Positions 4,211-63,069 of a stretch of 64,000 nt of DNA are shown here, piece after piece (position 1 is the stretch's first letter; every line of letters starts with the position of its first letter). The DNA is taken from the NCBI GenBank assembly GCA_003971905.1, contig RSEE01000044.1:124001-188000 (forward strand), written 5' to 3'. A model generated the notes under the pieces. The model was given only the letters and a program-made list of their open reading frames with translations, made no database searches and was not told the DNA's origin. This DNA comes from Moniliella sp. 'wahieum'. Taxonomy: Eukaryota. A program made the translations under genes and the position numbers.

Positions 4211-9219
<5,009 letters not shown>

Positions 9220-39449: not shown

Positions 39450-42400
39450 CTATTCGACCGTAGCCAACTTGTCCAGCAAGCGCTGCTGCACATGCGAAGG
39501 CAGAGCAGCCAGGCGGTCAAAGATGGCGTCTTCTTCCAGGTTCGTCACCAATGCCGCCAATGCCGTCTGAGCCTGGCTCGACTCGAGCAGATCGGCAAAG
39601 CAGCGTCATCCGCCTTGTCAATGTCGGGGGAAGCGGCGAGCACAGCCTCGTACATCTTGGCTAGGCTGCTCTGCGCCGTCAGCGTCGCATCTACCGCCCG
39701 GAGCTGGCGTTGCATCCCCACTTCAGCCAGGCGACGGCGCAAGCGCTGGTAAAAGTACCGCCGAGACTCGGGCCAGGACAACACGGCTTGCGCCACTCCC
39801 ACATTGTACATGCGCCCGGCCTTGTCGTGCGCATCAGCATAGGCGACCGCAATCGAGTTGAAGACAGGCGCCAACTCTTCCTCGCGCTGAGCAAGTTGCT
39901 GCTTGGTGTGCGCATCCGTCGTGCCCAGGCTGCGCAACTGACCGTAGACAGGATCCAAACGTTCCATCCAAGCGCGTTGCTGCGGCACGCGCACCTTGAT
40001 CTCCACCATGCCTTCGGGCTCCAAACTCCCCCACGGGCCGTCTCGTCCGTCGACAGTTCCATCAGACCGTCCTGGTTGATCTTGGAGTCGACCACAACAA
40101 ACGCACCGCCCGAAGCTCACCATTGGGCGCAATGTGGACAAACACCGGCTGACGGTAGTTGGTCAAACCATCCACAATGTACGACCCGTACTTGAGCACT
40201 TGATCAAACATGTCCTGCTGCCCGCCCGAGAAGCCGCGCCAGTTGGCAAAGATGATCAAAGGCAGGCCCTCGCGGTTGAAGTCGGCGATCGCCTGCGCCG
40301 TCTTGTACGCACTGTTCGGGTACCACACTTGACCCGCCTCCATGGTGCGCTGCTCTTGCGAGTTGGGATTCGCCGGATCAGCGGGCACAATCCGTTCCAG
40401 CGTACGGGTTTCAACGGCAATGGCGCCCATAGGGATGCCCCCCAGACGGCCACGACCCACCACAACCGAGGTAGCCCACCCGCCCAGCGTCTCTTGCCAT
40501 GAACCCTTGTCAAAGAAGCCAGAGAGGTAGGTCCCATCTTCCTCCGTCTTGCCCTCCAGCATCCAGCGGGATCATAAGGACCCTTGGGCGGCACATAGTC
40601 AATCACACGGTCCACGGGTCGTCCTTGACAAAGCGCGGAAGAGACAAGCCTTTCTTTGCTGGCACATAGCATCCACTTCAGCGCTTGGACCATCGCCTCA
40701 AGATCATCTTGGGCCTGCAGGTGCGACACACCGTTGCGGTACATGACTAGTCAACCAGTCGGGTCAGAATCCAGAAAGCAAAACAGAGAAAAGAGGAGGA
40801 GAAAGCGACGTACTCTGCGGCCCACCAAGCTGGAGGTTGGAAGTTACACCTCGCGACCAAGAAGTTTGTTGAGCGCCTGGTACCCGTCAAGATGAGCGGC
40901 GAACCGGTAACCTGGATCACGCGGTCTCCCAACCGGGCCAGGTACGCTCCAATGCCCACCGACCGGCCCGTGACAATGGTCGCGGTAAAGATCTCATCTC
41001 GAGCGCGGCTCGTCTCGCCGGCAATCAATCCCGAGCCCGACAGACACTCGACACCGAGCCGTTCTTGGACAGGCCGATGATGTCAGTAACAACGTGGTGC
41101 ACCGACCCATCCTCCTGCGTCTTGGGTTGGGTCAACACAGCCCCTGGCGAGTCCCGCTCCACTTCCGCCTGGGTCGCCTCATCAAGATAAAGGTACTCCC
41201 ATCCCTTGGCCGGGTCCGCCTCGTTGGTCCACTTGACACTGAACTTGTCCAGGATCTCCGTCGCGACGCCAATACGAGCACCCGAGTTGGCCGAGATGTA
41301 GAGACGAGGCACCCCGCGCTCCCGAGCCAGCTGCGAGGCGGCGGCAAACAGTTGATCTTCCACCGGGCCAAACGAGCCAGCTTGAACCGTCACATCGTTG
41401 GCAATCAGAACCATCTCCCGTCCCTCGGGGTACTCGGGCGTCAGCATCTCGATCCACCATGCCACCATGCTGATCTTGTTGAGCCCGGGACCGCGCTGCA
41501 CTTGTTGCAGCTCGCCCGACGGGCTCAGCACCAGTTGTGGACCAGACGAATCGGTTCCGTCGGACGGTTGGCTTTCCCACTGCGCTTCCACCCGGTCCGC
41601 AGAGCTTGGCGAAGAACGTCGATGAAGTCATAGGCAAACGTGGTCTGGAGAGCATGTGCCCGGGACGACGACTCTGCAAGGCCACCTTGGCCGACTGGGG
41701 GGCAAAAGCCGACTGGCCATGCCGAGGAGCTGGTTGGTCGGGCTCATTGAGCGATTGCAGCGACGACGCCCATCAGGTCCATCAATCTCAGTGTAGAACC
41801 CAAACTGGACCGAGTAGGCACTGCGGTTGGTGATAAAGGCACGTAGAGGAATGTGTTTGCCGCCGTACAGGATGGGGATGCGCACTTCGGCCGAGGTGAT
41901 GATGCGCAAGCGCTGGAACCGGTCCCCGTACCGCACCACAAACGAGCTCACCGCCTCCTTGACATTGTCCAGCGTCACATCCATATTGTAAATGAAGGAT
42001 AAAGATGTGCGACGAGTCGGCGTTGCGGTACTGTGGCTGCCCATTGCCAGCTCCACCACGTCGAGGATTTCACTGACGATGCGGGAGCTCTCGTGGATGA
42101 GGTAGGAGGACAGGTCTCCCGAGCTCTTGCCGGGCCGGACAAGCGAGCGAACAAAAGAAGCGACAGTCGGACGAATTGCTCAATGCCCGACCGTAAAACA
42201 GGTGGATCGTCGACGAAGGAACGGGGACACGGTCAGTTAAACTCCTCCGTCAGTCGGTCCAGCTCGAGTTGGTAGGCAAGCGCCGGTTCAATGTTGCGGA
42301 TCTGCATCTCCTCCGCCACGAGTTGTCCGGCTGAAGGCGCACGGTCGAGAAGAAAGGATACTGCCCTCGCGGCACAGGAGGTAGGTGACCCGACTTACCT

Positions 42401-45400
42401 TGACCTTGGTCAGGGCCAAGGAAGCCTTTTGCGTCACTGCCACCACCACTCCCGCGCCTTCTTCTCGTCAATGTCGTCGGCATCGGTAATGGCAATGTTG
42501 ATCACGTTGCCAGCGAGAGGAACGGAGCTAAATGCAGTCAATGCCTTCAAGGCCTGGTCCATAGCTTCTGTCAGCGCCTCGAGCGAGTCGCAGCTGGTCA
42601 TCACACCGTGGCGGATCAGCTGGTCGGGCTTGTCAAGCGCCATGGCCTTAAAGTCCGACTCGGACGAGGTGCGGTGCATTGTGCGCTGCAAGCGGCCCGA
42701 CCCACTGACGTCCTTGGGGATAGAAAGTGCCACGTGGCAACGCTCGCTCCTCGGCATCGATATCGACCATGTCGTACTCAATCGAGGTCGGTCATAGGCG
42801 CGGTAGGCACGGAGGATGTAGGTGGCCAACGACGCGTAGGCGAGGTGGTACTTGCGTGGTGAAGAAGGAGGAAGTACGTCGTAAACCGAATAGGGCGAAT
42901 CCGTCAACTCTTTCAGCACCGACAGGACGGGGTCGTGGAACTCGGCGGTGCCTCCGTAGGAGGAGGACATGACCGACGTGCGAAGGATGCGAGCCAGCTG
43001 ATGCGAACGGTCCTGAGAGACGGCAGACTGGCCTCGATCGACATCCCGCGCCTTGAGCGAGACAGGAGCCGTCTCCTTCGATTGAGGCTGGCCAGTTGAA
43101 GCAGCACCTGGTTAACACTGTCGCTCACCTCCTTTGACCCCGTCTGAGCCCCCTTGATGTGTACTTGTCCAGTAATCCGACAATCAAAGAGTTCTTACGA
43201 GACGTGCGTTGTGGGAATATGAAGGGGCGACCCTGTCCAAGTAGTCGGTCGGGATGAGCCTCACGCAGGGCCAAAACTTGTCTGCCTCCCAGAAAACAGC
43301 GATTCGACGCGTAATACTTTTGCAAAAAGCCGGCCAGCACCAAGATCTCGTGGGCTTCAAGACCACGAGTGTATGGTCAAAACTTCCAACAGCGGGCTGA
43401 GAGTGGTAAGAATCTGTGCTTGGACCGGCGCTTGGACTTGGTCCCGTACAAAGTTCTCCTCAGCTTGCGTAGACGCAAGGCAGGGAAAAGGCTGATGAGA
43501 GGTTCTGGGCAGTGTCGATGCTGTGGCGCAAAAGGTCTTGCAACTTGCCAGGAATGCGGCCCGACAAGGTAGACAGGACCGAATTGGCTTGGCTAAAGGG
43601 CAGTTCGGGGTTGCGCAATAACGCGATCATCTCAGGCACCGCCGAATGCAGCAAGTACGATTCATCAAACCCGTCCAGCACATGGTTGAGCGTACTGACC
43701 AAATACTCGAGCCGCTGGTGGGGTTTGTTCCAATAATGACGGCAGGCCTTGGTCGGACAAGACCAAACCAAATGGCTTGGCGTGCTGCACACGGCTGGGG
43801 TCGTCAAGAGAAAGGATACCAATGATGTCACCAGGGGAGAGGGAGACTCCCGGCTGCTTGAGGAAGGTTACGATCCCGTCTTCGGCCGCGGTGAGAGGTA
43901 GATACATCTTCATCACCTCGATTTCGGCAATGGATTGACCACTGACAACGTGGTCCCCGCTCTCGACGAGGAAGCGAACCAGTTTACCTGGCGAGGGGCT
44001 GCGAATTTGAGTCGGGTCATTTTCCTGCTCGATCAAACAAGTCTTGCTATCGATCATGAGCGGGTCATGCCCACTTCTTCGCGCCAGTACACCGGGTGCG
44101 ACTTGCCCGCCAGGCCAACCAGCAAGCCTCCGTCCGACAGAGGGCGGAGAGAAACACGAGTCCGGCCACCGTTGAGGTACAAGGTCCACTCTTGGGCCGA
44201 AGATTGCATCGCAGTAAAGTTGAACTTCTCTCCCTCGTAGATAAAGTCGATCGCAAACACTGTCTTGAGAGGTTGCGCGCGGAGGCACTTGGCCCTTGTT
44301 GAGGATCGTCTTGTATTCCGTAATCGACTCTTGCGAAAGCAGGAACGCCTTGACCGCCGCACCGCAAATCACCGCCAACTCCTTGGGGGGACGTTCAGCC
44401 GTGAGCTTGTCCTGGATCAGGCCATCAAGCCACCCGGTCGTGATGGTGTTGCGCTCGAACGCATCGGTCTCGAGCAGCTTGATGAGGTACTCGACCGTAG
44501 TACGGAAGTCACCACGGATCGAGAGTTCCTTGAGGGAGATGACCATCTGTTTGCGTGCTTCACTCCGATCGGCACCGTACGCGAAAACGTGCCGAATTGG
44601 CTATCGCATATTCGTGCAGCGCGCCATTGGATGCGACCGAGAAGTAGCCCCAGGTCGAGGTACTCGAACGGAAGTTGAGCTCGGTCAGGGCCCCCATGCC
44701 GGGCTTGAAGCCCGTGTCGGGGTTTTCGGCAGTGATGCGACAGGCCACAACGTGACCCTTGGGCTGGGGCTTGCGCTGGGTGGAGTAGCTGGCCGGATCG
44801 GTAAAGTCAAAGTCGATCCGTTCGGAGCCCTTAGGGTTCATCCCGTAGAGGGTGCGGATGTCGCGGATACGGTAGAGCGGGATACCCATCGCGACCTGGA
44901 GCTGGGCGGCGGGGATGTTGACGCCAGATACCATCTCGGTGGTAGGATGTTCGACTTGGAGACGCGGGTTGAGCTCGAGGAAGGAAAAGTCGCCCGATTC
45001 AGGTGATAGAGCCATTCGACCGTGCCGGCCGAGACGTAGCCCACCAGCTTGGCCAGTCGGACCGCCGCCCGCTCCATCTCTTCCCGAGCATCGTCGTTGG
45101 CGATCGTGACGGGGGCTTCCTCAATGATCTTTGGTGCCGACGCTGAACACTGCAGTCACGACCAAAGATGCTGATCGCATTGCCATATTGATCAGCGAGC
45201 AGTTGAACTTCCAAGTGACGGGCCTTGCCCGCCAGCTTCATGACAAAAACGGGCGAACCGGGCACCTCTCCCAGCACAGCCGTGTAGAGCTGGGCAAAGT
45301 CTTCCTCTTTGGTACACATGCGGATCCCTTGCCGCCACCTCCCTCGGATGCCTTGATCATGACGGGGTAGCCAATCTGAGCCTTGGCCATACCTTCCTCG

Positions 45401-46162
45401 GCAGAGTGAATGCAAGCACGGGAATATACCTCGTCCGAAACGGTGAGGAATCCGGCATCGGACATGATCGTGTCGGTGATGCCCGAACCAGACCAGGCAT
45501 GCACGGCACATCGGCATGTTGGGCAACAATGGTAGAGGAGATCTTGTCGCCGAGGGAACGCATCGCAGAGCCTGGGGCCCAATGAAGATGATCTTGCTCT
45601 CTGCCAGCTGTTCGGGCACCTTGGGTTCTCGGACGCGTGGCCCCTGTTCTGAATGTCAGCAACCAATGCGGGAAAGGGAGAAAAAAGGATGCGTGACGTA
45701 CCAGCCAGCCCAGACTGCATGGACGCCAGCGCGCTCGGCAATGTCTACGATAAGGTCCACGTTGGCATAGTTGTTGTTGTTGGAGCCGCCGGGGACCTCG
45801 ACATATTGGTCGGCCATGCGGATGTACTCGGCGTTGACCGAGAGATCTTCGGGGGTGGCCATGACGACAAACTCAATGGCACGCTCCAGTCCGAACGTTT
45901 CGTACGCCCACTTGCGAATGGAGCGGATCTCTTTGACGGCAGCAATGCCGTTGTTGCAGATGAGGACGCGGGTGATGACCGAGTGGCCAGCATGTTGCTT
46001 GACAAAGTCGGTCACCGCCGAGGGCGTGGCGGTCTCGACCGGGTTGCCGCCTGGGGGGGGCAGATGGGAAGTCAGCATGCGAAAGGGGACGGATGGATGG
46101 ATGGATGGATGCGGTGTGTACGCACCGACAAAGTGGGATCCAGGTGGCGGGTCGGCCTGCAT
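39450..46162 (-). CDS. ACC1: Acetyl-CoA carboxylase
   Basis: BC domain ([60 protein letters not shown]), biotinyl motif EVMKM and CT domain ([34 protein letters not shown]). It ends ..[12 protein letters not shown] at 39450-39452. Introns lie near 46052-46123, 45644-45701 and 40748-40812. Confidence 0.99.
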
Positions 46163-47893
46163 GACGGCGAGGTGGGGGGAGGGGGAGGGGGAGGGTGGTG
46201 GTGGGGGGGGGGGGGTACAGAGAGACAGCGACTGAATATTGATTGCGCTGTGTGGCTGCTATACGCACACCTGCACGGGCGCCGCGCCTGCTTGGTGCGG
46301 ATGCAGTGTGCACGTGAGGATCCAAGCGGACGATCGATGTCGATGAGGCCCCGAGGTTCGTTGGGGGCATCTGCTGATGCATCACGCATCCCATGTCACA
46401 TCCCCCATCACAGCCTGCCTGCACGGGGCCACTGCCGCCACCGAGCCCAACCTTGGCTTTGCCTCCGTGCGCCGTACTGCAGGCTGGGTGCTGCCCTGCA
46501 AATAGCCGCACCCCGTGCACGCAGCCTTGCCCAACGCACACACACTGCGCCGGTGCCGGGATGCATCCCATGGGATGCAGTGCGCAGCCACCCGTTTTGT
46601 TCCGAACCAGGCCGCAGCACTAGGCCTCACCTCGGATGGCATATTGAACTATTGAACGTTGAACGCTGAGCCGAGGCACAGAGACCACGGGAAAGGGCGA
46701 CCGCCGCTGCGGCCCCGAGCACCGACACCCGAGCACCGAGCGCCGCTTGCGGCGTTGGTGCAGTGCTGTGGGCCGCGTGAGCCGCATGGGCTTCGCTGGC
46801 TGCTGGTGGCTGGCAACCGAACCACACAGCCTGCCGCCTCCCCCATCGCTGGACTGGGCCACACCCGCTGAGGCCACGCCAGGCCCCACGACAGCCCCCA
46901 TCGTTTGCGCTAGGCAGCACACCAGCTCGCTCCCGTCCGCCGGCCAGCCGTCCCTTGCAGCATCGTCCAGCCGATATGCAGCCTCAAGCGTGATCTATGA
47001 CCAATGACGGAGAACAGGTGGGGTCCCCCGAGACATGCCGCAAACCATCCGGTGCCCAACACCCACACTGTCTCTGGCTCGGCCTCCCGCCAGCCCGTGT
47101 GCCCCCGCACCACCCACCTCGCCCACCCAACCTCACCATGCCCAACCAAATCCCATCTCCCAATCCCATTGTCTGCCTCGCCTTCCCATCCGTCCGCAGC
47201 ATGATGCGTGGTGCATGACCGCCCACCCTCCACACCTTCCATCGATCATTCTTGTCATGGACCCGTGGGCCTGGGTCTGGTGTGGAAGAAACTGTCCCAC
47301 TCGCATCACTGGCCCCTGCGCAGCCCCATCACGCTTCCGTTCCCCAAAGCAGGTACGCCCGGTAGGAGCCCAAGCATCCAAGCAAGTTTTCGTTGAGGAC
47401 AACCGGCTCCGCAAGGAGCGACGGTCCTTAGTGGTCATACAGAGGCGGTTCAGCTCTCCTGTTCAAACGCAAAGAGGCAGCGCCCAACATTTTGCTTGGT
47501 GCTGTGGGTGCCCTGCCTCAGCCGTAGGGGTTACGGGACGGGGGTGAGCTGGAAAAGCCTCTGAAATGAGGGTGTAGGAACTGGATCGGTTGTTACTGAC
47601 CAGTGCGGGCCCAACAGACACTTGCCACCAGACACGCATCTAATACCTCGAAACGTCATGTAAAGCGTTGATGTCTCTCATATATACCTCTGGGTTCTCT
47701 TACTCTTTGAGAGCCAGCATAGTCCCGGCCTCTCTCATCTAAGTGCGCAATTTGTCTGGCATTTCGACAGCCGGGCCAAGTGTGGGCAAACCATGCGGGA
47801 TGCGGGTTGTTTTGGGGATGCATTAATTGGTCTTCCCCCATGCTACACCCGACAAGGGAGAGGGGAAGAGGACGGGAAGGGGGTAGCCCAGCC

Positions 47894-49177
47894 TTAGTGC
47901 TTGGGCGGGTTGTACTGCAGCCTGCGGTTGGTGATCGAGGCCCACTTGTACCTCTTGACCCAGATGGAGAGAGCAAGCATGGTGGAAGCGATGATCATGT
48001 ACTGCATTCCCATTTTCTTGCGCTCATCGTGCTCGGGCGAAGCGGCCCAGCTGAGGAACGTGACCACGTCCTTGGCCATCTGCGACGTGGCTGGTGTACC
48101 GTCCTCGTACTCCACCAGCCCATCAAACAGTACCCGCGCCATACCAATCTGCGTACCAGGAAGTACGGGTTGAAGTTCATCCCCGGGCACGTGCACGCCG
48201 GCTGGTGGGTCGACATAGCCCGTCAAGAGGGAGAAGATGTAGTCGGCGCCCGAGTGACGCGCCTTGACCATCAACGACAGGTCCGGAGGAAGCGCACCTG
48301 GTTCGCCGCACGCGACGCCTCGTCGTTCGGGTACGGTGAAGGAATGTAGTCGGCACTTACCCGGCCGGGTAAACATCTCACCCTCATCGTTCGGTCCATC
48401 CTGGTACTCGTAGTCCGCTGCGATCTCCTTCACCTCGTCGACAGTATGCGAAACGCCGACCAAGTGCGCCACGCAATCCGCGTCAGCGAGTGGCACGACG
48501 CGCACACTTCGCGGTACACCTGGAAACCACGACGGATCGATGCATGGTCGTACGTCTCAAAGTGACCGAGGTGAGGCCAAGGGTAGGCGGTCGGGTGCAC
48601 CCTTCGTCTTCTCGTTCGCGCTCACAGCGGGAAGGAACGGCCTCGCCAAACATCGTGGCGTACAGGGCAATCCCACCCACCACCGCAGCCGTAGAGGTAT
48701 ACGCTGCGGTGCGCGACGCCCAAAACGGAGCTTGGGCTTGCGCCGCATTGCTGGCCGTCGAGGCAAACCGAGTCTGTGACAGAGAAAAGAAAGGCAAGTT
48801 AGCCGCACTGCCTGGGACCATGCGCCCACAGCTCAGCCTGAACGTGGATGCGGAGTGTTGCGGGGTTGAGACAGATCGTGCAGAAGGAGCGCCGCGCGTT
48901 CTTCCCTTCCCAGCCCCCCCCCAAAACCTCCTTCCCAATCAGATCGAAAGAAAGGATCCAAAAAGAGAGTGCAAGTTGAAGGATGGGACCCACATCGGGG
49001 TACTCGTTCGATCCGAACGAGGCAAACCTCCTGAGCAAGGGAGGGAGTAGGGGGAGCCAGGACCATGTCCACCGCGTTCGTTCGGGCATCATCGATTCCT
49101 GACAAGACAAGATGGACTTACCCCTTGGGGCCGGCGATCGAAGCGCGGCTGAACGCCGTACGGAGTAAGGATGCCAT
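47894..49177 (-). CDS. CYT1: Cytochrome c1 (complex III)
   Basis: Exon 1 presequence [19 protein letters not shown] (ATG 49177), intron about 49121-48774 (GTAAGT..GCTAAC..CAG), TRFAST, heme motif [36 protein letters not shown] and C-terminal anchor ..[22 protein letters not shown]. Confidence 0.97.
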
Positions 49178-59575: not shown

Positions 59576-60104
59576 GGCGGGGGCGGAGGGGGGGCGGGTG
59601 TGCGAGAGGGGGGAAGCGAGGCCTGGCGATCATATATCAGCCCCAGGCGGACATGCGCTATCAGTACACCAGGACTGGTTCGCACCTGGGCCTCCCCCAG
59701 TCGGCTGTGTCGTGGATCCTACTTAGATTTGCCAGCACTGGAAGGGAGCCGTGCACGAGCCCAGTCTGAGCTGTGAGCGGTCGGAGCATCCCACTGGGCG
59801 AGTGCCGCACTTTGATTGAATACGCGCCCTGCCTCGCCTCTCACGTGGAGCTGGCAGGCTGCGCCCCAGTCAGCACATGTGCAAGTTTCAGACGCCTCCG
59901 CTCACGCCTCATTTTACATTTCAATCGTGCCAGCCTGCTGCTCGGCGGAACGGCGGAACGTGCCATCCGTTCCGCCGCGCCCGCAAGAAGCTCTCCTTCT
60001 TTCCCAGGCCGGCGCTGCTGCCGCTGCGCTTCGACATCCCCTGTCCTGTCTTTCCTGTCCTCTTCTGGACGACGACGACGACGACCCCCGCGGCGGCGAT
60101 AACC

Positions 60105-61605
60105 ATGGCTGGATCCCTCGTTCCGCTGCAGCTGGCAGTCCGCTCTGCCCGCCGCTCTCCGCTTGCCCTCACCCGCGGCCTGAGCACACTCCGCTCTGCC
60201 TCGGCCTTGGCCTACCCCACCGCCGCCTCCCTCCGCGCCCCGGCCCACCGCCCGCGCCGTACGCTTACTACCGCTGCCGACGATGCCTTTTCCCCGCCAG
60301 CGTCGCGGCGAGGCACGTAAGCACGCTTACCGTCTCGTCGTCGTCGGCGGCGGCACTGCCGGCCAGGCCGTGGCCAAGGAGGTCGCCAAGTCGGGGTACT
60401 TCCCGACGGACGGGGCTGCGGAGATCCTTGTGATTGACCCGGCCGAGTTCCATGACTACCAGCCAGGCTGGACTCTTGTTGGTGGCGGTGTGCGCACTCG
60501 CGAGGAAGGTCGTCGGAGTATGAAGGAACTTACTGTCACCGAAGCTGTGCCTGGCAAGACGGCCGGAATCGATTACTTGGCCGACTCAGTCGCCACTTTC
60601 GCTCCCGAGACAAACGAGATCAAGACGCGCGACGGTCGCACGATCGCCTACGAGCAGCTGGTTGTTGCTCCTGGTATCAAGACCAACTGGGATGCCATTG
60701 AGGGTCTTCCTGACGCTTTGGCTCACCCCAAAGAGACCGGTGTGGTCTGCATCTATGGCTACAACACTGTTCCCCACGTCTTCCCGGCTATTGAGGCGCT
60801 CACCAAGGGCCAGGCTATCTTTACCCAACCGGCTGCCGTGATCAAATGCGCCGGAGCCCCGCAAAAGATCATGTGGATGGCGTTGGACCACTGGAAGCGA
60901 GCGGGCCAGTTTCGCCGTCGGATCCCACCAAGGGTGTCAAAGTCTCTTTCCTCGATGGGTTGCCAACGATGTTTGGCGTGCCCAAGTACAGTGCGGTTTT
61001 GGAGGAGCTGCGCAAGGAACGCCAGGTTGAGGGTTTGTTCAACACCAACCTTGTCAAGATCGATGCAGGAAAGAAGGTGGCCACCTTTACCACCTCTGAC
61101 GGTGGTTCGTTGGAGCGTGCCTACGATCTGCTGCATGTCTCGCCCCCCATGGGCCCGCTTGACTTTATCAAGAACTCCCCTCTTGCCGCTGAACAGGGCG
61201 GGTTTGTTGATGTCGACCCGGCCACGACGCAGCACACTAAGTACAAGAACATTTGGTCGCTTGGTGACTCGTCGTCCCTTCCTACCTCCAAGACGACCGC
61301 TGCGATTACCGCCCAAGCGCCTGTCACGGTAGCCAACATGCTCTTCACCATGGCCAACCCCGGTACGACGGAGCTGCCTGCTGCGTACGACGGCTATACC
61401 TCTTGCCCGCTCATCACCGAGTACGGTAAAGTGCTCTTGGCTGAGTTTAAATACGGTGGGCAGCCCAAGGAGTCGTTTGCCAAGTTTGGCATCGACCAAG
61501 GCGAGCCCATGCGCGCATTCTGGTACCTGAAGAAGGAATTTTTCCCTCGCGTCTACTACAGCTCCATGGTCAAGGGCAACTGGGCTGGGTCTAAGGGATG
61601 GCTTA
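60105..61605 (+). CDS. Sulfide:quinone oxidoreductase (SQR, Hmt2-like) moiety
   Basis: Mitochondrial presequence from ATG 60105, FAD motif VVVGGGTAG, YQPGWTLVGGG, catalytic cysteines in IKCAGAPQKIMW and YDGYTSCPL, WSLGDSSSLPTSKTTAA, LAEFKYG and C-terminal MVKGNWAGSKGW. No in-frame stop follows. Confidence 0.96.
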
Positions 61606-62248
61606 ACCCCAAGACGCTGGCCCCAGCGACGAACACCCGCAGTATGCACACTGCAGCTCGCGCCAGTTTAACGACTCCCCTTCCGATGGGGGGGCAGCGT
61701 CGTTCCTTCTCTACTTCGCACGTGGCAGGGCGCCATTCGCATGTGACCCCCGTTCGGCGTAGCCGCGACCCTCTGGAAGAGGACAAGAAAGCGGGCTGGA
61801 GCCGGTTGCCGACGGGTGAAACGTTTGTGGTGCGCGCCTCCGTCGGTGGAGCCGCCGGAGAGCACGACGATGGTCCTGTCTCCGATCCTGGATGGCAAAG
61901 ATGCCAGGACGGGCACGGACGACTCGGTGGGGGATGCGCCGCTGCCGCCTCCTACGCGCCGTGAGACCCAGCCGTTGCAACGCCGGCCGCGAACACCGCG
62001 TCAGACCCCGTTGACCGCCGCGGACATCATTGCGATCCAGCGCTTGCGCACCTCGGACCCGGTCAAGTACAACATCTACGCCCTGGCGCGCATTACAGCG
62101 TCAAGCCGCTCTGGATCCGTATGGTCGCTCGGCCACCCCGCGTACGCGTGAGCACGCGATCATGGTCGATGATGAGCGGCGCAAGCGGTGGTCGATTGCG
62201 AAGCGGATCAAGTACGCCGAGCGCATCGAGAGGAGGAAGCTGTGGTGA
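61606..62248 (+). CDS. MRPL20: Mitochondrial ribosomal protein mL58 (Mrpl20)-like moiety, in frame with SQR
   Basis: RDPLEED..ETFVVR(A)PPS..SPIL..PLPPP..LTAADIIAIQRLRTSDPVKYNIYALAR..IRMVA..RKRWSIAKRIKYAERIERRKLW*. This follows the fungal MRP-L20 pattern (LT..DI..I..LR..DP......LA..., ending RR..W). Confidence 0.85.
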
Positions 62249-63069
62249 GCCGCTCGCTGTGGTCCCTAGGGATCGCGTTCAAAATTTTGCTTCCTTTTTC
62301 TGGGCCATGGTACGGGTGGAGGTGGTGTGCGAGGCCTGTTCAGAGGAGCGACAAGGGTGCAAATGCTGTGTTCTGTGAAGCGAGTAGGGCTCTTTAACAC
62401 TGCACTCGCCAGCGTGGCTCGTCGTGTCGAGGAAGCGTCTCCCTCTTTTTGAATCCATACTGGCATTCGCCAAAAAAACACAAAACACAGGGACGTTGGC
62501 GAGACCCCCGATCCCTTGGGGCTATCGATGCGGAGAGATAGAGGAGGAATCGCCACAGATAGTGAGTGCTATCGATGACGGGGTCGGGGATGCTTGGGGG
62601 GTGAGGCAGGGTAGAGGACGGAACAGCAAGGGAGAACGATGACGAACAATACTCTGTACGGCGCTTCTCATCAGCTTCATCCGTACCCCTAGGGCTAGAT
62701 TCAATTTGGAGACGAATTTAATGGCGGCAGCCAGGGTTCCTGACTTACTGGCAACACCATTGGTCTCCTACTAGGGGGAGCGCGAGTGGTCTGCAAATAT
62801 GCCGGGGCGAGCGAGGGGACGTCGGTGATCGCCACCCGCTCGGCCTGATCCTCGTAGGCGAAGAGGAGGAGTGACTAGTGATGTAACCAAGGCCGAAGGC
62901 CTATGAATCAGCCTGAAATCGATGATCGATCTGATGCGATGCTATCCCATTTTGCGGAGTGTTTCGTGCTTTTTTTACGGTGCATTAGCTAATCATCCTC
63001 GCGCCATCCTTCTCGCCTCAGAGGCCGAAGCAATGGACTTAGGGGCGACGGTATTCGTGTCTTGCCACG

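What the first reader, a model, noticed from the sequence alone, without database searches (positions are those of the whole stretch)
60105..62248. Sulfide:quinone oxidoreductase fused in frame to mitoribosomal protein mL58 through an internal presequence-like linker
Seen: ORF 60846..61964 passes without a stop from the SQR C-terminus (MVKGNWAGSKGW) through LNPKTLAPATNTRSMHTAARASLTTPLPMGGQRRSFSTSHVA into mL58 sequence. The linker has no acidic residues, is Arg/Ser/Thr-rich, and carries two MPP-like sites (TRSMHT and RRSFST). Known: fungi have mitochondrial tandem precursors, such as yeast Arg5,6 and S. pombe Rsm22-Cox11, Cox15-Yah1 and Aco2-bL21, some of which are split after import. I do not recall an SQR-mL58 pair among them. 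Inference: one precursor delivers both a sulfide-oxidising enzyme and a mitoribosome subunit, coupling H2S detoxification to mitochondrial translation. Caveat: one dropped T at TGG CTT AAC (about 61602-61607) would create a TAA. mL58 would then start at its own ATG (61644) only about 40 nt later, which is still unusually tight.
Basis: partly seen in the sequence, partly recalled or inferred. Interest (0 to 1): 0.85.

Follow-up and report, generated by a model that had tools for sequence, protein, structure and literature searches.

The report
Conserved SQR–mL58 mitochondrial tandem precursor gene
In smut fungi and their relatives a sulfide-detoxifying enzyme and a mitochondrial ribosome protein are encoded as one protein joined by a retained import signal, which adds an apparently undescribed natural example to the small class of mitochondrial "two-in-one" precursors.

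Summary
In window frame 0 the SQR C-terminus (…SKGW, ends 61601) runs without a stop through a 36-residue Arg/Ser/Thr-rich linker into mL58.

It is not an assembly accident. 68 SQR–mL58 fusion proteins were recovered. They include 27 named species in 14 genera and three classes of Ustilaginomycotina. The closest (84% and 80% identical) read "GWLNPKTLAP…" in the same frame.

In 65 of 65 analysable fusions the linker ends in R-x-F-[A/S]-T-S, 18 residues before the conserved [R/K]DPL block in 62 of 65. Stand-alone mL58 of Exobasidiales carries the same motif in its N-terminal presequence. The linker is therefore the retained mL58 presequence with its MPP/Icp55-type cleavage site.

Cleavage itself, and any coupling of sulfide oxidation to translation, remain inferred.

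The window copy has five frame breaks. An essential ACC gene in the same window is broken in the same way, so these are assembly indels.

No paper on this fusion turned up in eight searches. This is a new member of a known kind (Arg5,6, Atp25, Rsm22-Cox11).

The parts
60105..60293 (+). N-terminal mitochondrial presequence region of SQR (frame 0), MAGSLVPLQLAVRSARRS… to …TTAADDAFS
   Evidence: The start Met aligns with the first Met of the fused relative P0122. The equivalent residues 1-81 of P0122 have pLDDT <50 in the AF2 model.
60294..60306 (+). Frame break 1 (frame 0 to frame 1), taken to be an assembly indel
   Evidence: tblastn of P0121: one segment ends at 60293 and the next starts at 60307 in another frame.
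60307..61601 (+). SQR catalytic domain. It carries GGGTAGQ (FAD site), KCAGAPQK and YDGYTSCP (the two cysteines), and the C-terminal FWYLKKEFFPRVYYSSMVKGNWAGSKGW. Frame break 2 lies at about 60906-60912, where TTT stands for TTTT.
   Evidence: Pfam PF07992 on both pieces. 83-86% identity to P0121. P0123, an orthologue, matches human SQOR 6oi5 at E=3.8e-74. Both cysteines are invariant in 44 of 44 fusions.
61602..61709 (+). Linker, read as an internal presequence: LNPKTLAPATNTRSMHTAARASLTTPLPMGGQRRSF. It has no Asp or Glu. A loose first R-x-hydrophobic motif, RSMHT, lies at 61638-61652. A non-conserved in-frame ATG lies at 61644.
   Evidence: The equivalent residues 521-572 of P0122 have pLDDT <50.
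61701..61718 (+). Conserved R-S-F-S-T-S motif. The predicted MPP (R-2) plus Icp55, or R-3, processing site falls after F (61709). The predicted mature mL58 then starts at S (61710).
   Evidence: Among 65 fusions R is present in 65, F in 63, A/S in 59, T in 58 and S in 62, and the motif sits 18 residues before [R/K]DPL in 62 of 65. The same motif ends the N-terminal presequence of stand-alone mL58. The consensus [R][AFR][FLY]↓[AKLS][HSTQ] is quoted in PMC5063612.
61710..62248 (+). mL58 (MRP-L20) through the conserved C-terminus …ERIERRKLW and the TGA stop. Frame breaks 3-5 lie at 61835-61837, 62093-62094 (TT for TTT) and ~62130.
   Evidence: Pfam PF12824 at 29.8 bits on 61747-62151. tblastn segments in three frames against P0121 and P0122. 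Orthologue P0123 matches yeast mL58 (5mrc_a, 3j6b_a) and Neurospora mL58 (6ywe_a).

Best explanation
Window 60105-62248 is a single nuclear gene for a mitochondrial tandem (composite) precursor. Its order is N-terminal presequence, sulfide:quinone oxidoreductase, retained mL58 presequence, then mitoribosomal protein mL58.

The gene most likely arose in an early member of Ustilaginomycotina when an SQR gene lost its stop codon and ran into a downstream mL58 gene. The whole chain is imported into the matrix by the SQR presequence, and possibly also by the internal one.

The matrix processing peptidase then cuts at the N-terminal site and at the junction motif R-x-F-[S/A]-T-S. Icp55 may trim the Phe. 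Many species, this one included, may have a second cut about 20 residues upstream that excises the linker, as in Atp25.

The products are free membrane-bound SQR and free mL58, which joins the large mitoribosomal subunit.

Shown here: the fusion, its conservation, and the homology of the linker to the mL58 presequence. Inferred: import, cleavage, and the reason for the fusion. The five frame breaks in the window copy are assembly indels, not biology.
For: 1. Continuous frame across the junction, lying inside one 312-codon tblastn segment 83% identical to fused relative P0121.
2. 68 fused proteins were found: 65 of 119 long hits and 3 of 120 listed hits, identified. 27 named species of Ustilago, Sporisorium, Pseudozyma, Moesziomyces, Melanopsichium, Testicularia, Thecaphora, Violaceomyces, Tilletiaria, Jaminaea, Parajaminaea, Sympodiomycopsis, Ceraceosorus and Malassezia carry the fusion (taxonomy). 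Many fusions come from metagenome or read-assembly ORF calls on several contigs, for example P0186 on 23 contigs.
3. 44 of 65 linkers contain no Met, so in those species mL58 cannot start on its own at an ATG in the linker.
4. The junction motif R-x-F-[A/S]-T-S is present in 65 of 65 fusions and at a fixed distance in 62 of 65. The rest of the linker varies from 21 to 60 residues.
5. Stand-alone mL58 of Meira, Exobasidium and unnamed relatives has an N-terminal Met-initiated presequence ending in the same motif at the same distance. Other basidiomycete-like mL58 proteins begin M-L-K-R-x-F-T/S-T.
6. The motif fits the MPP consensus quoted in PMC5063612. Internal MPP cleavage of tandem precursors is established for Arg5,6 and Atp25 (passages read from PMC8734313 and PMC5063612).
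7. The AF2 model of P0122 gives confident SQR (82-506) and mL58 C-terminal helices (650-730), joined by a segment with pLDDT <50 at 521-572.
8. Linker composition: mean 7.4 Arg+Lys, 0.55 Asp+Glu, 27% Ser+Thr.
9. ACC, an essential gene in the same window, is split into at least 10 ORFs in shifting frames. The frame breaks are therefore an assembly property.
Against: - No protein-level, transcript or read evidence is available for any species. Cleavage is inferred from motif conservation only.
- The window sequence is unreliable at single-base level, with five breaks in 2.1 kb. The TT at 61603-61604 is a run of the same kind as the two T-run undercalls seen elsewhere in the gene.
- One unnamed relative of the window's clade, P0001 (495 aa, 62-70% identical to P0121/P0122), ends at '…GWINPKSLLP', inside the stretch homologous to the linker. 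Its DNA could not be examined, so a stop, an intron or a local fission are all possible.
- Exobasidiales have unfused mL58, so the fusion is dispensable.
- Position -2 of the motif is mostly G or S (36 and 18 of 65), not the A/F/R of the quoted yeast consensus.
- The matrix-facing location of the SQR C-terminus is recalled from work on the mammalian enzyme. It was not verified here.
Confidence: 0.65

Rival explanations
1. The fusion is real but the protein is not cleaved, or only partly. SQR stays covalently joined to mL58, so the mitoribosome's membrane-facing protuberance carries a monotopic inner-membrane enzyme that tethers it to the membrane or seeds its assembly there.
For: mL58 (MrpL20) is described as one of the membrane-protuberance proteins, with mL44, mL50 and mL57, that nucleate early large-subunit assembly and membrane tethering (passages in PMC11345376). 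SQOR is an inner-membrane CoQ reductase (passage in PMC13324536). In Malassezia the linker shrinks to about 21 residues. No experiment excludes an uncleaved form.
Against: The only invariant element of the linker is a textbook processing motif inherited from the mL58 presequence. An uncleaved tether would have no obvious reason to keep it. Unfused mL58 works in Exobasidiales and in all other fungi sampled: 147 of the 150 best mL58 representatives are 300 aa or shorter, though at least three of those are truncated fusions. Every characterised tandem precursor read about here is cleaved.
Confidence: 0.13
2. In this organism, mL58 is also or mainly made on its own from the in-frame ATG at 61644, by an internal promoter or leaky scanning. 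The remainder of the linker would then act as an ordinary N-terminal presequence.
For: The window has Met at 61644 and a second at 61686. Relative P0122 also has Met at the first position, 'RAMHT'. MHTAARASLTTPLPMGGQRRSF|STS would be a plausible presequence.
Against: The Met is not conserved: the closest relative P0121 has Leu there, and 44 of 65 fusions have no Met anywhere in the linker. There are no transcript data.
Confidence: 0.1
3. Assembly artefact: the true genome has a stop after SQR (for example TGG CTT TAA through a missed T), and the two are tightly spaced separate genes.
For: The assembly has frequent indels, five in this gene and many in ACC. Two of the five are missed T's in T runs. 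P0001 shows that a relative can end its ORF within the linker.
Against: The residues after the supposed stop, NPKTLAP, are identical in P0121 and P0122 in the fused frame. The linker differs from P0121 only by substitutions and two whole-codon gaps. Fusion is the state in 68 relatives. A 40-nt intergenic spacer with no room for a promoter would itself be odd.
Confidence: 0.03
4. The window copy is a decaying pseudogene, so the frame breaks are real.
For: Five frame changes in 2.1 kb.
Against: Each in-frame piece stays 70-86% identical to P0121, with catalytic motifs intact. The essential ACC gene in the same window is broken just as often. At least two of the five breaks are homopolymer-length errors.
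Confidence: 0.03

Closest known systems
Atp25 of S. cerevisiae (Rsf + M domain composite precursor; Woellhaf et al. 2016, PMC5063612, passages read)
   Same: Two functionally unrelated mitochondrial proteins lie in one ORF, and one of them binds the mitoribosome. An internal MTS-like stretch sits between them with MPP motifs. In Atp25 two internal cuts excise the internal presequence, and 46 of 65 SQR-mL58 linkers likewise carry two R-x-hydrophobic motifs.
   Different: The partners differ (SQR and a structural ribosomal protein), as does the lineage (Ustilaginomycotina). Processing is untested here.
Arg5,6 of fungi (Friedl et al. 2020, PMC8734313, passages read)
   Same: A tandem precursor conserved across a large fungal clade and cut by MPP at a conserved internal MTS-like junction. 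The two genes are separate in other lineages.
   Different: Arg5 and Arg6 act in one pathway and form a complex. SQR and mL58 have no known functional link.
S. pombe Rsm22-Cox11, Etp1 (Cox15-ferredoxin), SPAC22A12.08c; rice RPS14 fusion (listed in PMC8734313)
   Same: Lineage-specific tandem precursors, several of which deliver a mitoribosomal protein. [quoted passage not shown]
   Different: None involves SQR or mL58.
SQR fused to sulfide-pathway partners (rhodanese in Aspergillus spp.; metallo-beta-lactamase domain in Talaromyces, dinoflagellates and others), seen among the hits
   Same: SQR acts as the N-terminal module of a longer predicted protein.
   Different: Those partners belong to the same sulfide-oxidation pathway, a 'Rosetta stone' type of fusion. 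mL58 does not.

Membership tests
Mitochondrial tandem/composite precursor (Arg5,6 / Atp25 kind) | Two distinct mature proteins encoded in one uninterrupted ORF | tested here: met
   The junction is continuous in the window, and 68 fused relatives were found. The window ORF as a whole is interrupted by five assembly-type frame breaks away from the junction.
Mitochondrial tandem/composite precursor (Arg5,6 / Atp25 kind) | N-terminal matrix-targeting presequence | tested here: inconclusive
   Residues 1-57 (MAGSLVPLQLAVRSARRS… up to the first Asp) are Arg/Ser/Ala/Leu-rich with no acidic residue. The equivalent region of P0122 is disordered in AF2. No targeting predictor was available.
Mitochondrial tandem/composite precursor (Arg5,6 / Atp25 kind) | Internal presequence-like segment with an MPP recognition motif at the junction | tested here: met
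   R-x-F-[A/S]-T-S occurs in 65 of 65 fusions. The linker is basic, hydroxylated and nearly free of acidic residues. It is homologous to the N-terminal presequence of stand-alone mL58. It fits the consensus quoted in PMC5063612, except at position -2.
Mitochondrial tandem/composite precursor (Arg5,6 / Atp25 kind) | Proteolytic separation into two polypeptides after import | not testable with these tools
   This needs a western blot, N-terminomics or an in vitro MPP assay.
Eukaryotic sulfide:quinone oxidoreductase (SQOR/Hmt2 type) | Pyr_redox_2 flavoprotein fold with an FAD-binding GxGxxG and full-length similarity to solved SQOR | tested here: met
   PF07992 on both window pieces. VVVGGGTAGQ is present. 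Orthologue P0123 matches human SQOR 6oi5_A at E=3.8e-74 over residues 54-485.
Eukaryotic sulfide:quinone oxidoreductase (SQOR/Hmt2 type) | Two active-site cysteines (KCAGAPQK and YDGYTSCP contexts; their catalytic role is recalled, not tested) | tested here: met
   Both are present in the window and invariant in 44 of 44 aligned fusions (C260 and C446 of P0122).
mL58 (MRP-L20, Pfam PF12824) | Match to the family profile and to mL58 chains of solved mitoribosomes | tested here: met
   The window fragment scores 29.8 bits against a cut-off of 30.4 (just below, on a piece truncated by frame breaks). The source's precomputed Pfam column lists PF12824 for 64 of the 65 fused relatives. P0123 matches yeast 5mrc_a and 3j6b_a and Neurospora 6ywe_a at E about 1e-6 to 1e-7.
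mL58 (MRP-L20, Pfam PF12824) | Incorporation into the mitochondrial large ribosomal subunit | not testable with these tools
   No mitoribosome structure or proteome of a basidiomycete was found or examined.

The most novel reading that the evidence does not exclude
The fusion may do more than deliver two proteins. SQR's C-terminal membrane-binding helices would hold mL58 at the inner membrane, either transiently before cleavage or permanently in an uncleaved fraction. mL58 is a component of the membrane-facing protuberance that nucleates large-subunit assembly. Mitoribosome assembly or tethering in a whole fungal subphylum would then be seeded on a sulfide-oxidising, quinone-reducing enzyme. 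The unfused Exobasidiales would serve as a natural control.
Probability: 0.1. Interest if true: 0.8.

Novelty: new member of a known kind. Interest (0 to 1): 0.5.

Why it matters
Few mitochondrial tandem precursors are known, and it is unresolved why so many of them carry a mitoribosomal protein (a question raised in PMC5063612).

This one is conserved across three classes of fungi. They include genetically tractable U. maydis and the human skin commensal Malassezia. It shows a clear evolutionary path, with a retained presequence serving as the linker. It also comes with natural variants: a minimal 21-residue linker in Malassezia and unfused genes in Exobasidiales.

Together these make the questions 'what does fusion buy?' and 'what does MPP need at an internal site?' directly testable.

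If the junction is cut in the matrix, the fusion would also imply that the C-terminus of fungal SQR reaches the matrix.

On the practical side, database names for this one orthologue range from 'sulfide:quinone oxidoreductase' to '54S ribosomal protein L20', so annotation pipelines are mislabelling it.

Tried and rejected
- Whole genome of the window: none is held.
- Public sequencing runs for 60100-62300: none was listed and no RNA holder was listed.
- Earlier notes of this scan by place, words and sequence: nothing relevant. The one note returned, on a DoxX-NDH-2 fusion, is unrelated.
- Metagenome scan with Meira-like stand-alone mL58 (P0246), meant to test whether SQR lies just upstream of unfused mL58. 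It returned a single 1448-nt locus, L001. That locus matches only a 'LAKQFGCS' helix-turn-helix-like stretch and is not mL58. Synteny in Exobasidiales is untested.
- mL58-domain tree (quick IQ-TREE, 85 rows, 158 columns).
  - The Exobasidiales stand-alone group nests beside three unnamed fusions, but only with unstarred support (82-93).
  - At least four 'stand-alone' rows turned out to be truncated or frame-shifted fusions: P0251, P0256, P0258 and P0295.
  - The printed count of 9 state changes is therefore meaningless, and secondary fission is only suggested.
- SQOR membrane topology from papers: the passages found say only 'inner-membrane oxidoreductase'. The matrix orientation remains recalled.
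- Literature searches for the fusion:
  - combined sulfide/quinone, SQR, mL58, MRPL20, Ustilago, Malassezia, mitoribosome and fusion.
  - searched for tandem or composite precursors.
  - No paper describes SQR-mL58. The two U. maydis H2S papers (PMC13266210 and bioRxiv 10.1101/2025.03.13.642974, passages read) only list SQR as a predicted enzyme.
  - Only the held open-access library was searched.
- Pseudogene and assembly-artefact readings were considered and rejected (see the rival explanations).
Full report
**What is in the window**

On the + strand an ATG at 60105 opens a Ser/Arg/Ala/Leu-rich N-terminus, followed by a sulfide:quinone oxidoreductase (SQR). The SQR carries VVVGGGTAGQ, KCAGAPQK and YDGYTSCP, and it ends …SSMVKGNWAGSKGW at 61601. 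The same frame then continues without a stop through LNPKTLAPATNTRSMHTAARASLTTPLPMGGQRRSFSTSHVAGRHSHVTPVRRSRDPLEED… into mL58. mL58 ends …ERIERRKLW-TGA at 62248. Pfam gives Pyr_redox_2 on the SQR pieces. It gives MRP-L20 at 29.8 bits, against a cut-off of 30.4, on the longest in-frame mL58 piece.

**Quality of the assembly**

The gene is not one open frame here. Alignment to the closest fused relatives shows five frame changes, at about 60294-60306, 60906-60912, 61835-61837, 62093-62094 and ~62130. Two of them are plainly missed T's in T runs. This is not specific to the gene. The acetyl-CoA carboxylase gene on the minus strand (~39.5-46.3 kb) is essential, yet it is spread over at least ten overlapping or abutting ORFs in different frames. 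The breaks are therefore assembly indels, and single bases in this window cannot be trusted. No genome and no sequencing runs were available (see Tried and rejected).

**The fusion is real and old**

- A search with window 60918-61838 found three proteins among the 120 listed that cover SQR, the linker and mL58 (P0002, P0005, P0029).
- The same query restricted to longer proteins returned 119 hits. 65 of them carry both an SQR and an mL58 part.
- 27 named species carry it. Genera: Ustilago, Sporisorium, Pseudozyma, Moesziomyces, Melanopsichium, Testicularia, Thecaphora and Violaceomyces (Ustilaginomycetes); Tilletiaria, Jaminaea, Parajaminaea, Sympodiomycopsis and Ceraceosorus (three orders of Exobasidiomycetes); and six Malassezia species (Malasseziomycetes) (taxonomy).
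- The other 54 long hits are SQRs with other or spurious partners from other lineages.
- The two closest proteins, P0121 (84%) and P0122 (80%), read GWLNPKTLAP… exactly as the window does. The window matches P0121 in one uninterrupted segment, 60900-61835. The linker differs only by substitutions and two whole-codon gaps.
- 44 of 65 linkers contain no Met, so in most species mL58 has no start codon of its own in the linker.
- An exhaustive profile search with stand-alone mL58 listed 150 best representative clusters. Three are fused (two full-length, one a 466-aa partial). At least three of the shorter rows are truncated SQR-mL58 fusions, and no representative over 300 aa has a partner other than SQR.

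**What the linker is**

- Across 65 analysable fusions the linker is 21-60 residues long, basic (mean 7.4 R+K), almost free of acidic residues (one or none in 63 of 65) and 27% Ser+Thr.
- Its only fixed feature is R-x-F-[A/S]-T-S: R in 65 of 65, F in 63 of 65. It lies 18 residues before the conserved [R/K]DPL block in 62 of 65.
- 46 of 65 also have a second, looser R-x-hydrophobic motif upstream (RSMHT in the window). Malassezia has lost that part.
- A search for short relatives found eight stand-alone mL58 proteins of 186-224 aa. They include Meira miltonrushii and Exobasidium rhododendri (Exobasidiales) and Microbotryum.
- The Exobasidiales-type proteins start with Met and a 45-70 residue presequence. 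It ends …R-S-[F/L/I]-S-T-[S/T]…RNTPARRPRDPL, the same motif at the same distance. Other basidiomycete-like mL58s begin M-L-K-R-x-F-[S/T]-T.
- The linker is therefore the ancestral mL58 presequence, retained after the fusion.
- The motif fits the MPP consensus [R][AFR][FLY]↓[AKLS][HSTQ] quoted by Woellhaf et al. (PMC5063612), apart from G/S at position -2.
- From memory, the R-3 pattern is explained by MPP cutting at R-2 and Icp55 removing the Phe.
- An AF2 model of P0122 shows confident SQR and mL58 C-terminal helices, joined by a low-confidence segment at 521-572.

**Most likely mechanism**

One precursor is imported. MPP removes the N-terminal presequence and cuts at the junction, perhaps twice so that the linker is excised as in Atp25. 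This releases membrane-bound SQR and free mL58. Internal MPP cleavage is established for Arg5,6 and Atp25 (passages read in PMC8734313 and PMC5063612). The same authors note that most known tandem precursors yield a mitoribosomal protein, and they suggest that embedding protects the cytosol from such proteins.

The fusion, its conservation and the presequence homology are shown here. Import, cleavage and purpose are inferred. I put about 0.95 on the fusion being genuine and about 0.65 on the full statement including cleavage.

**Evidence against, and open points**

- P0001, an unnamed 495-aa SQR of the window's wider clade, ends …GWINPKSLLP inside the linker-homologous stretch.
- Exobasidiales have unfused mL58, so the fusion is not indispensable.
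- A quick mL58 tree places the Exobasidiales group next to fused sequences, which suggests secondary fission. Support is weak, and at least four 'stand-alone' rows were truncated fusions.
- Nothing here supports a functional coupling of sulfide oxidation with translation.

**Rival worth keeping**

mL58 (MrpL20) belongs to the membrane-facing protuberance that nucleates large-subunit assembly (PMC11345376). SQR is an inner-membrane enzyme (PMC13324536). An uncleaved or slowly cleaved fusion could therefore place mL58 at the membrane. The strict conservation of a processing motif argues against a permanently uncleaved protein. I give this rival about 0.1-0.13.

**Novelty**

Eight full-text searches found no description of an SQR-mL58 fusion. 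Two recent U. maydis H2S papers only list SQR as a predicted enzyme. The lists of known tandem precursors in PMC8734313 and PMC5063612 do not include it. The architecture is visible in databases, where both Pfam domains are precomputed. Product names there vary from 'sulfide:quinone oxidoreductase' to '54S ribosomal protein L20'.

It is a new member of a known kind: solid, conserved and experimentally tractable, but not a new principle. Interest 0.5.

Noticed in passing
window 39548-46258 (- strand): An acetyl-CoA carboxylase gene (Biotin_carb_N, CPSase_L_D2, Biotin_carb_C, ACCA_BT, Biotin_lipoyl, ACC_central, Carboxyl_trans) is split over at least 10 ORFs in shifting, partly overlapping frames. 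This points to assembly-wide indel errors at roughly one per 400-800 bases.
   Followed up: partly
window 47897-48556 (-); 4214-7828 (-): A cytochrome c1 gene, and a SNF2/HSA/SnAC/bromodomain chromatin remodeller that is itself in two ORFs.
   Followed up: no
proteins P0176, P0177, P0183-P0185, P0195, P0196, P0214-P0221: In other lineages SQR is predicted fused to rhodanese (several Aspergillus) or to a metallo-beta-lactamase domain (Talaromyces, dinoflagellates, unnamed). These are probable same-pathway sulfide-oxidation fusions.
   Followed up: no
protein P0001: An unnamed 495-aa SQR related to the window's clade stops at '…GWINPKSLLP', eight residues into the stretch that is linker in the fused relatives. 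It may mark an intron or a secondary split. Its contig could not be read.
   Followed up: partly
protein P0260: A 168-aa stand-alone mL58 starts 'MRLFSTT…RNTPARRPRDP', with the Met directly on the processing motif. It groups with fused Ustilaginaceae in the quick tree. It could be a mis-called start or another independent split.
   Followed up: no
proteins P0121/P0122 vs other fusions: The mL58 part of the window's own clade is unusually divergent. It is 34-35% identical to P0240, whereas the other fused proteins compared are 43-53% identical to P0240, and it sits on a long branch (0.88). The SQR part is not divergent in this way.
   Followed up: no
L001:1111-1314: The metagenome locus fetched with Meira-like mL58 matches only the 'LAKQFGCS' segment. 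It looks like an unrelated helix-turn-helix protein, which hints that the mL58 C-terminal helices resemble an HTH.
   Followed up: partly
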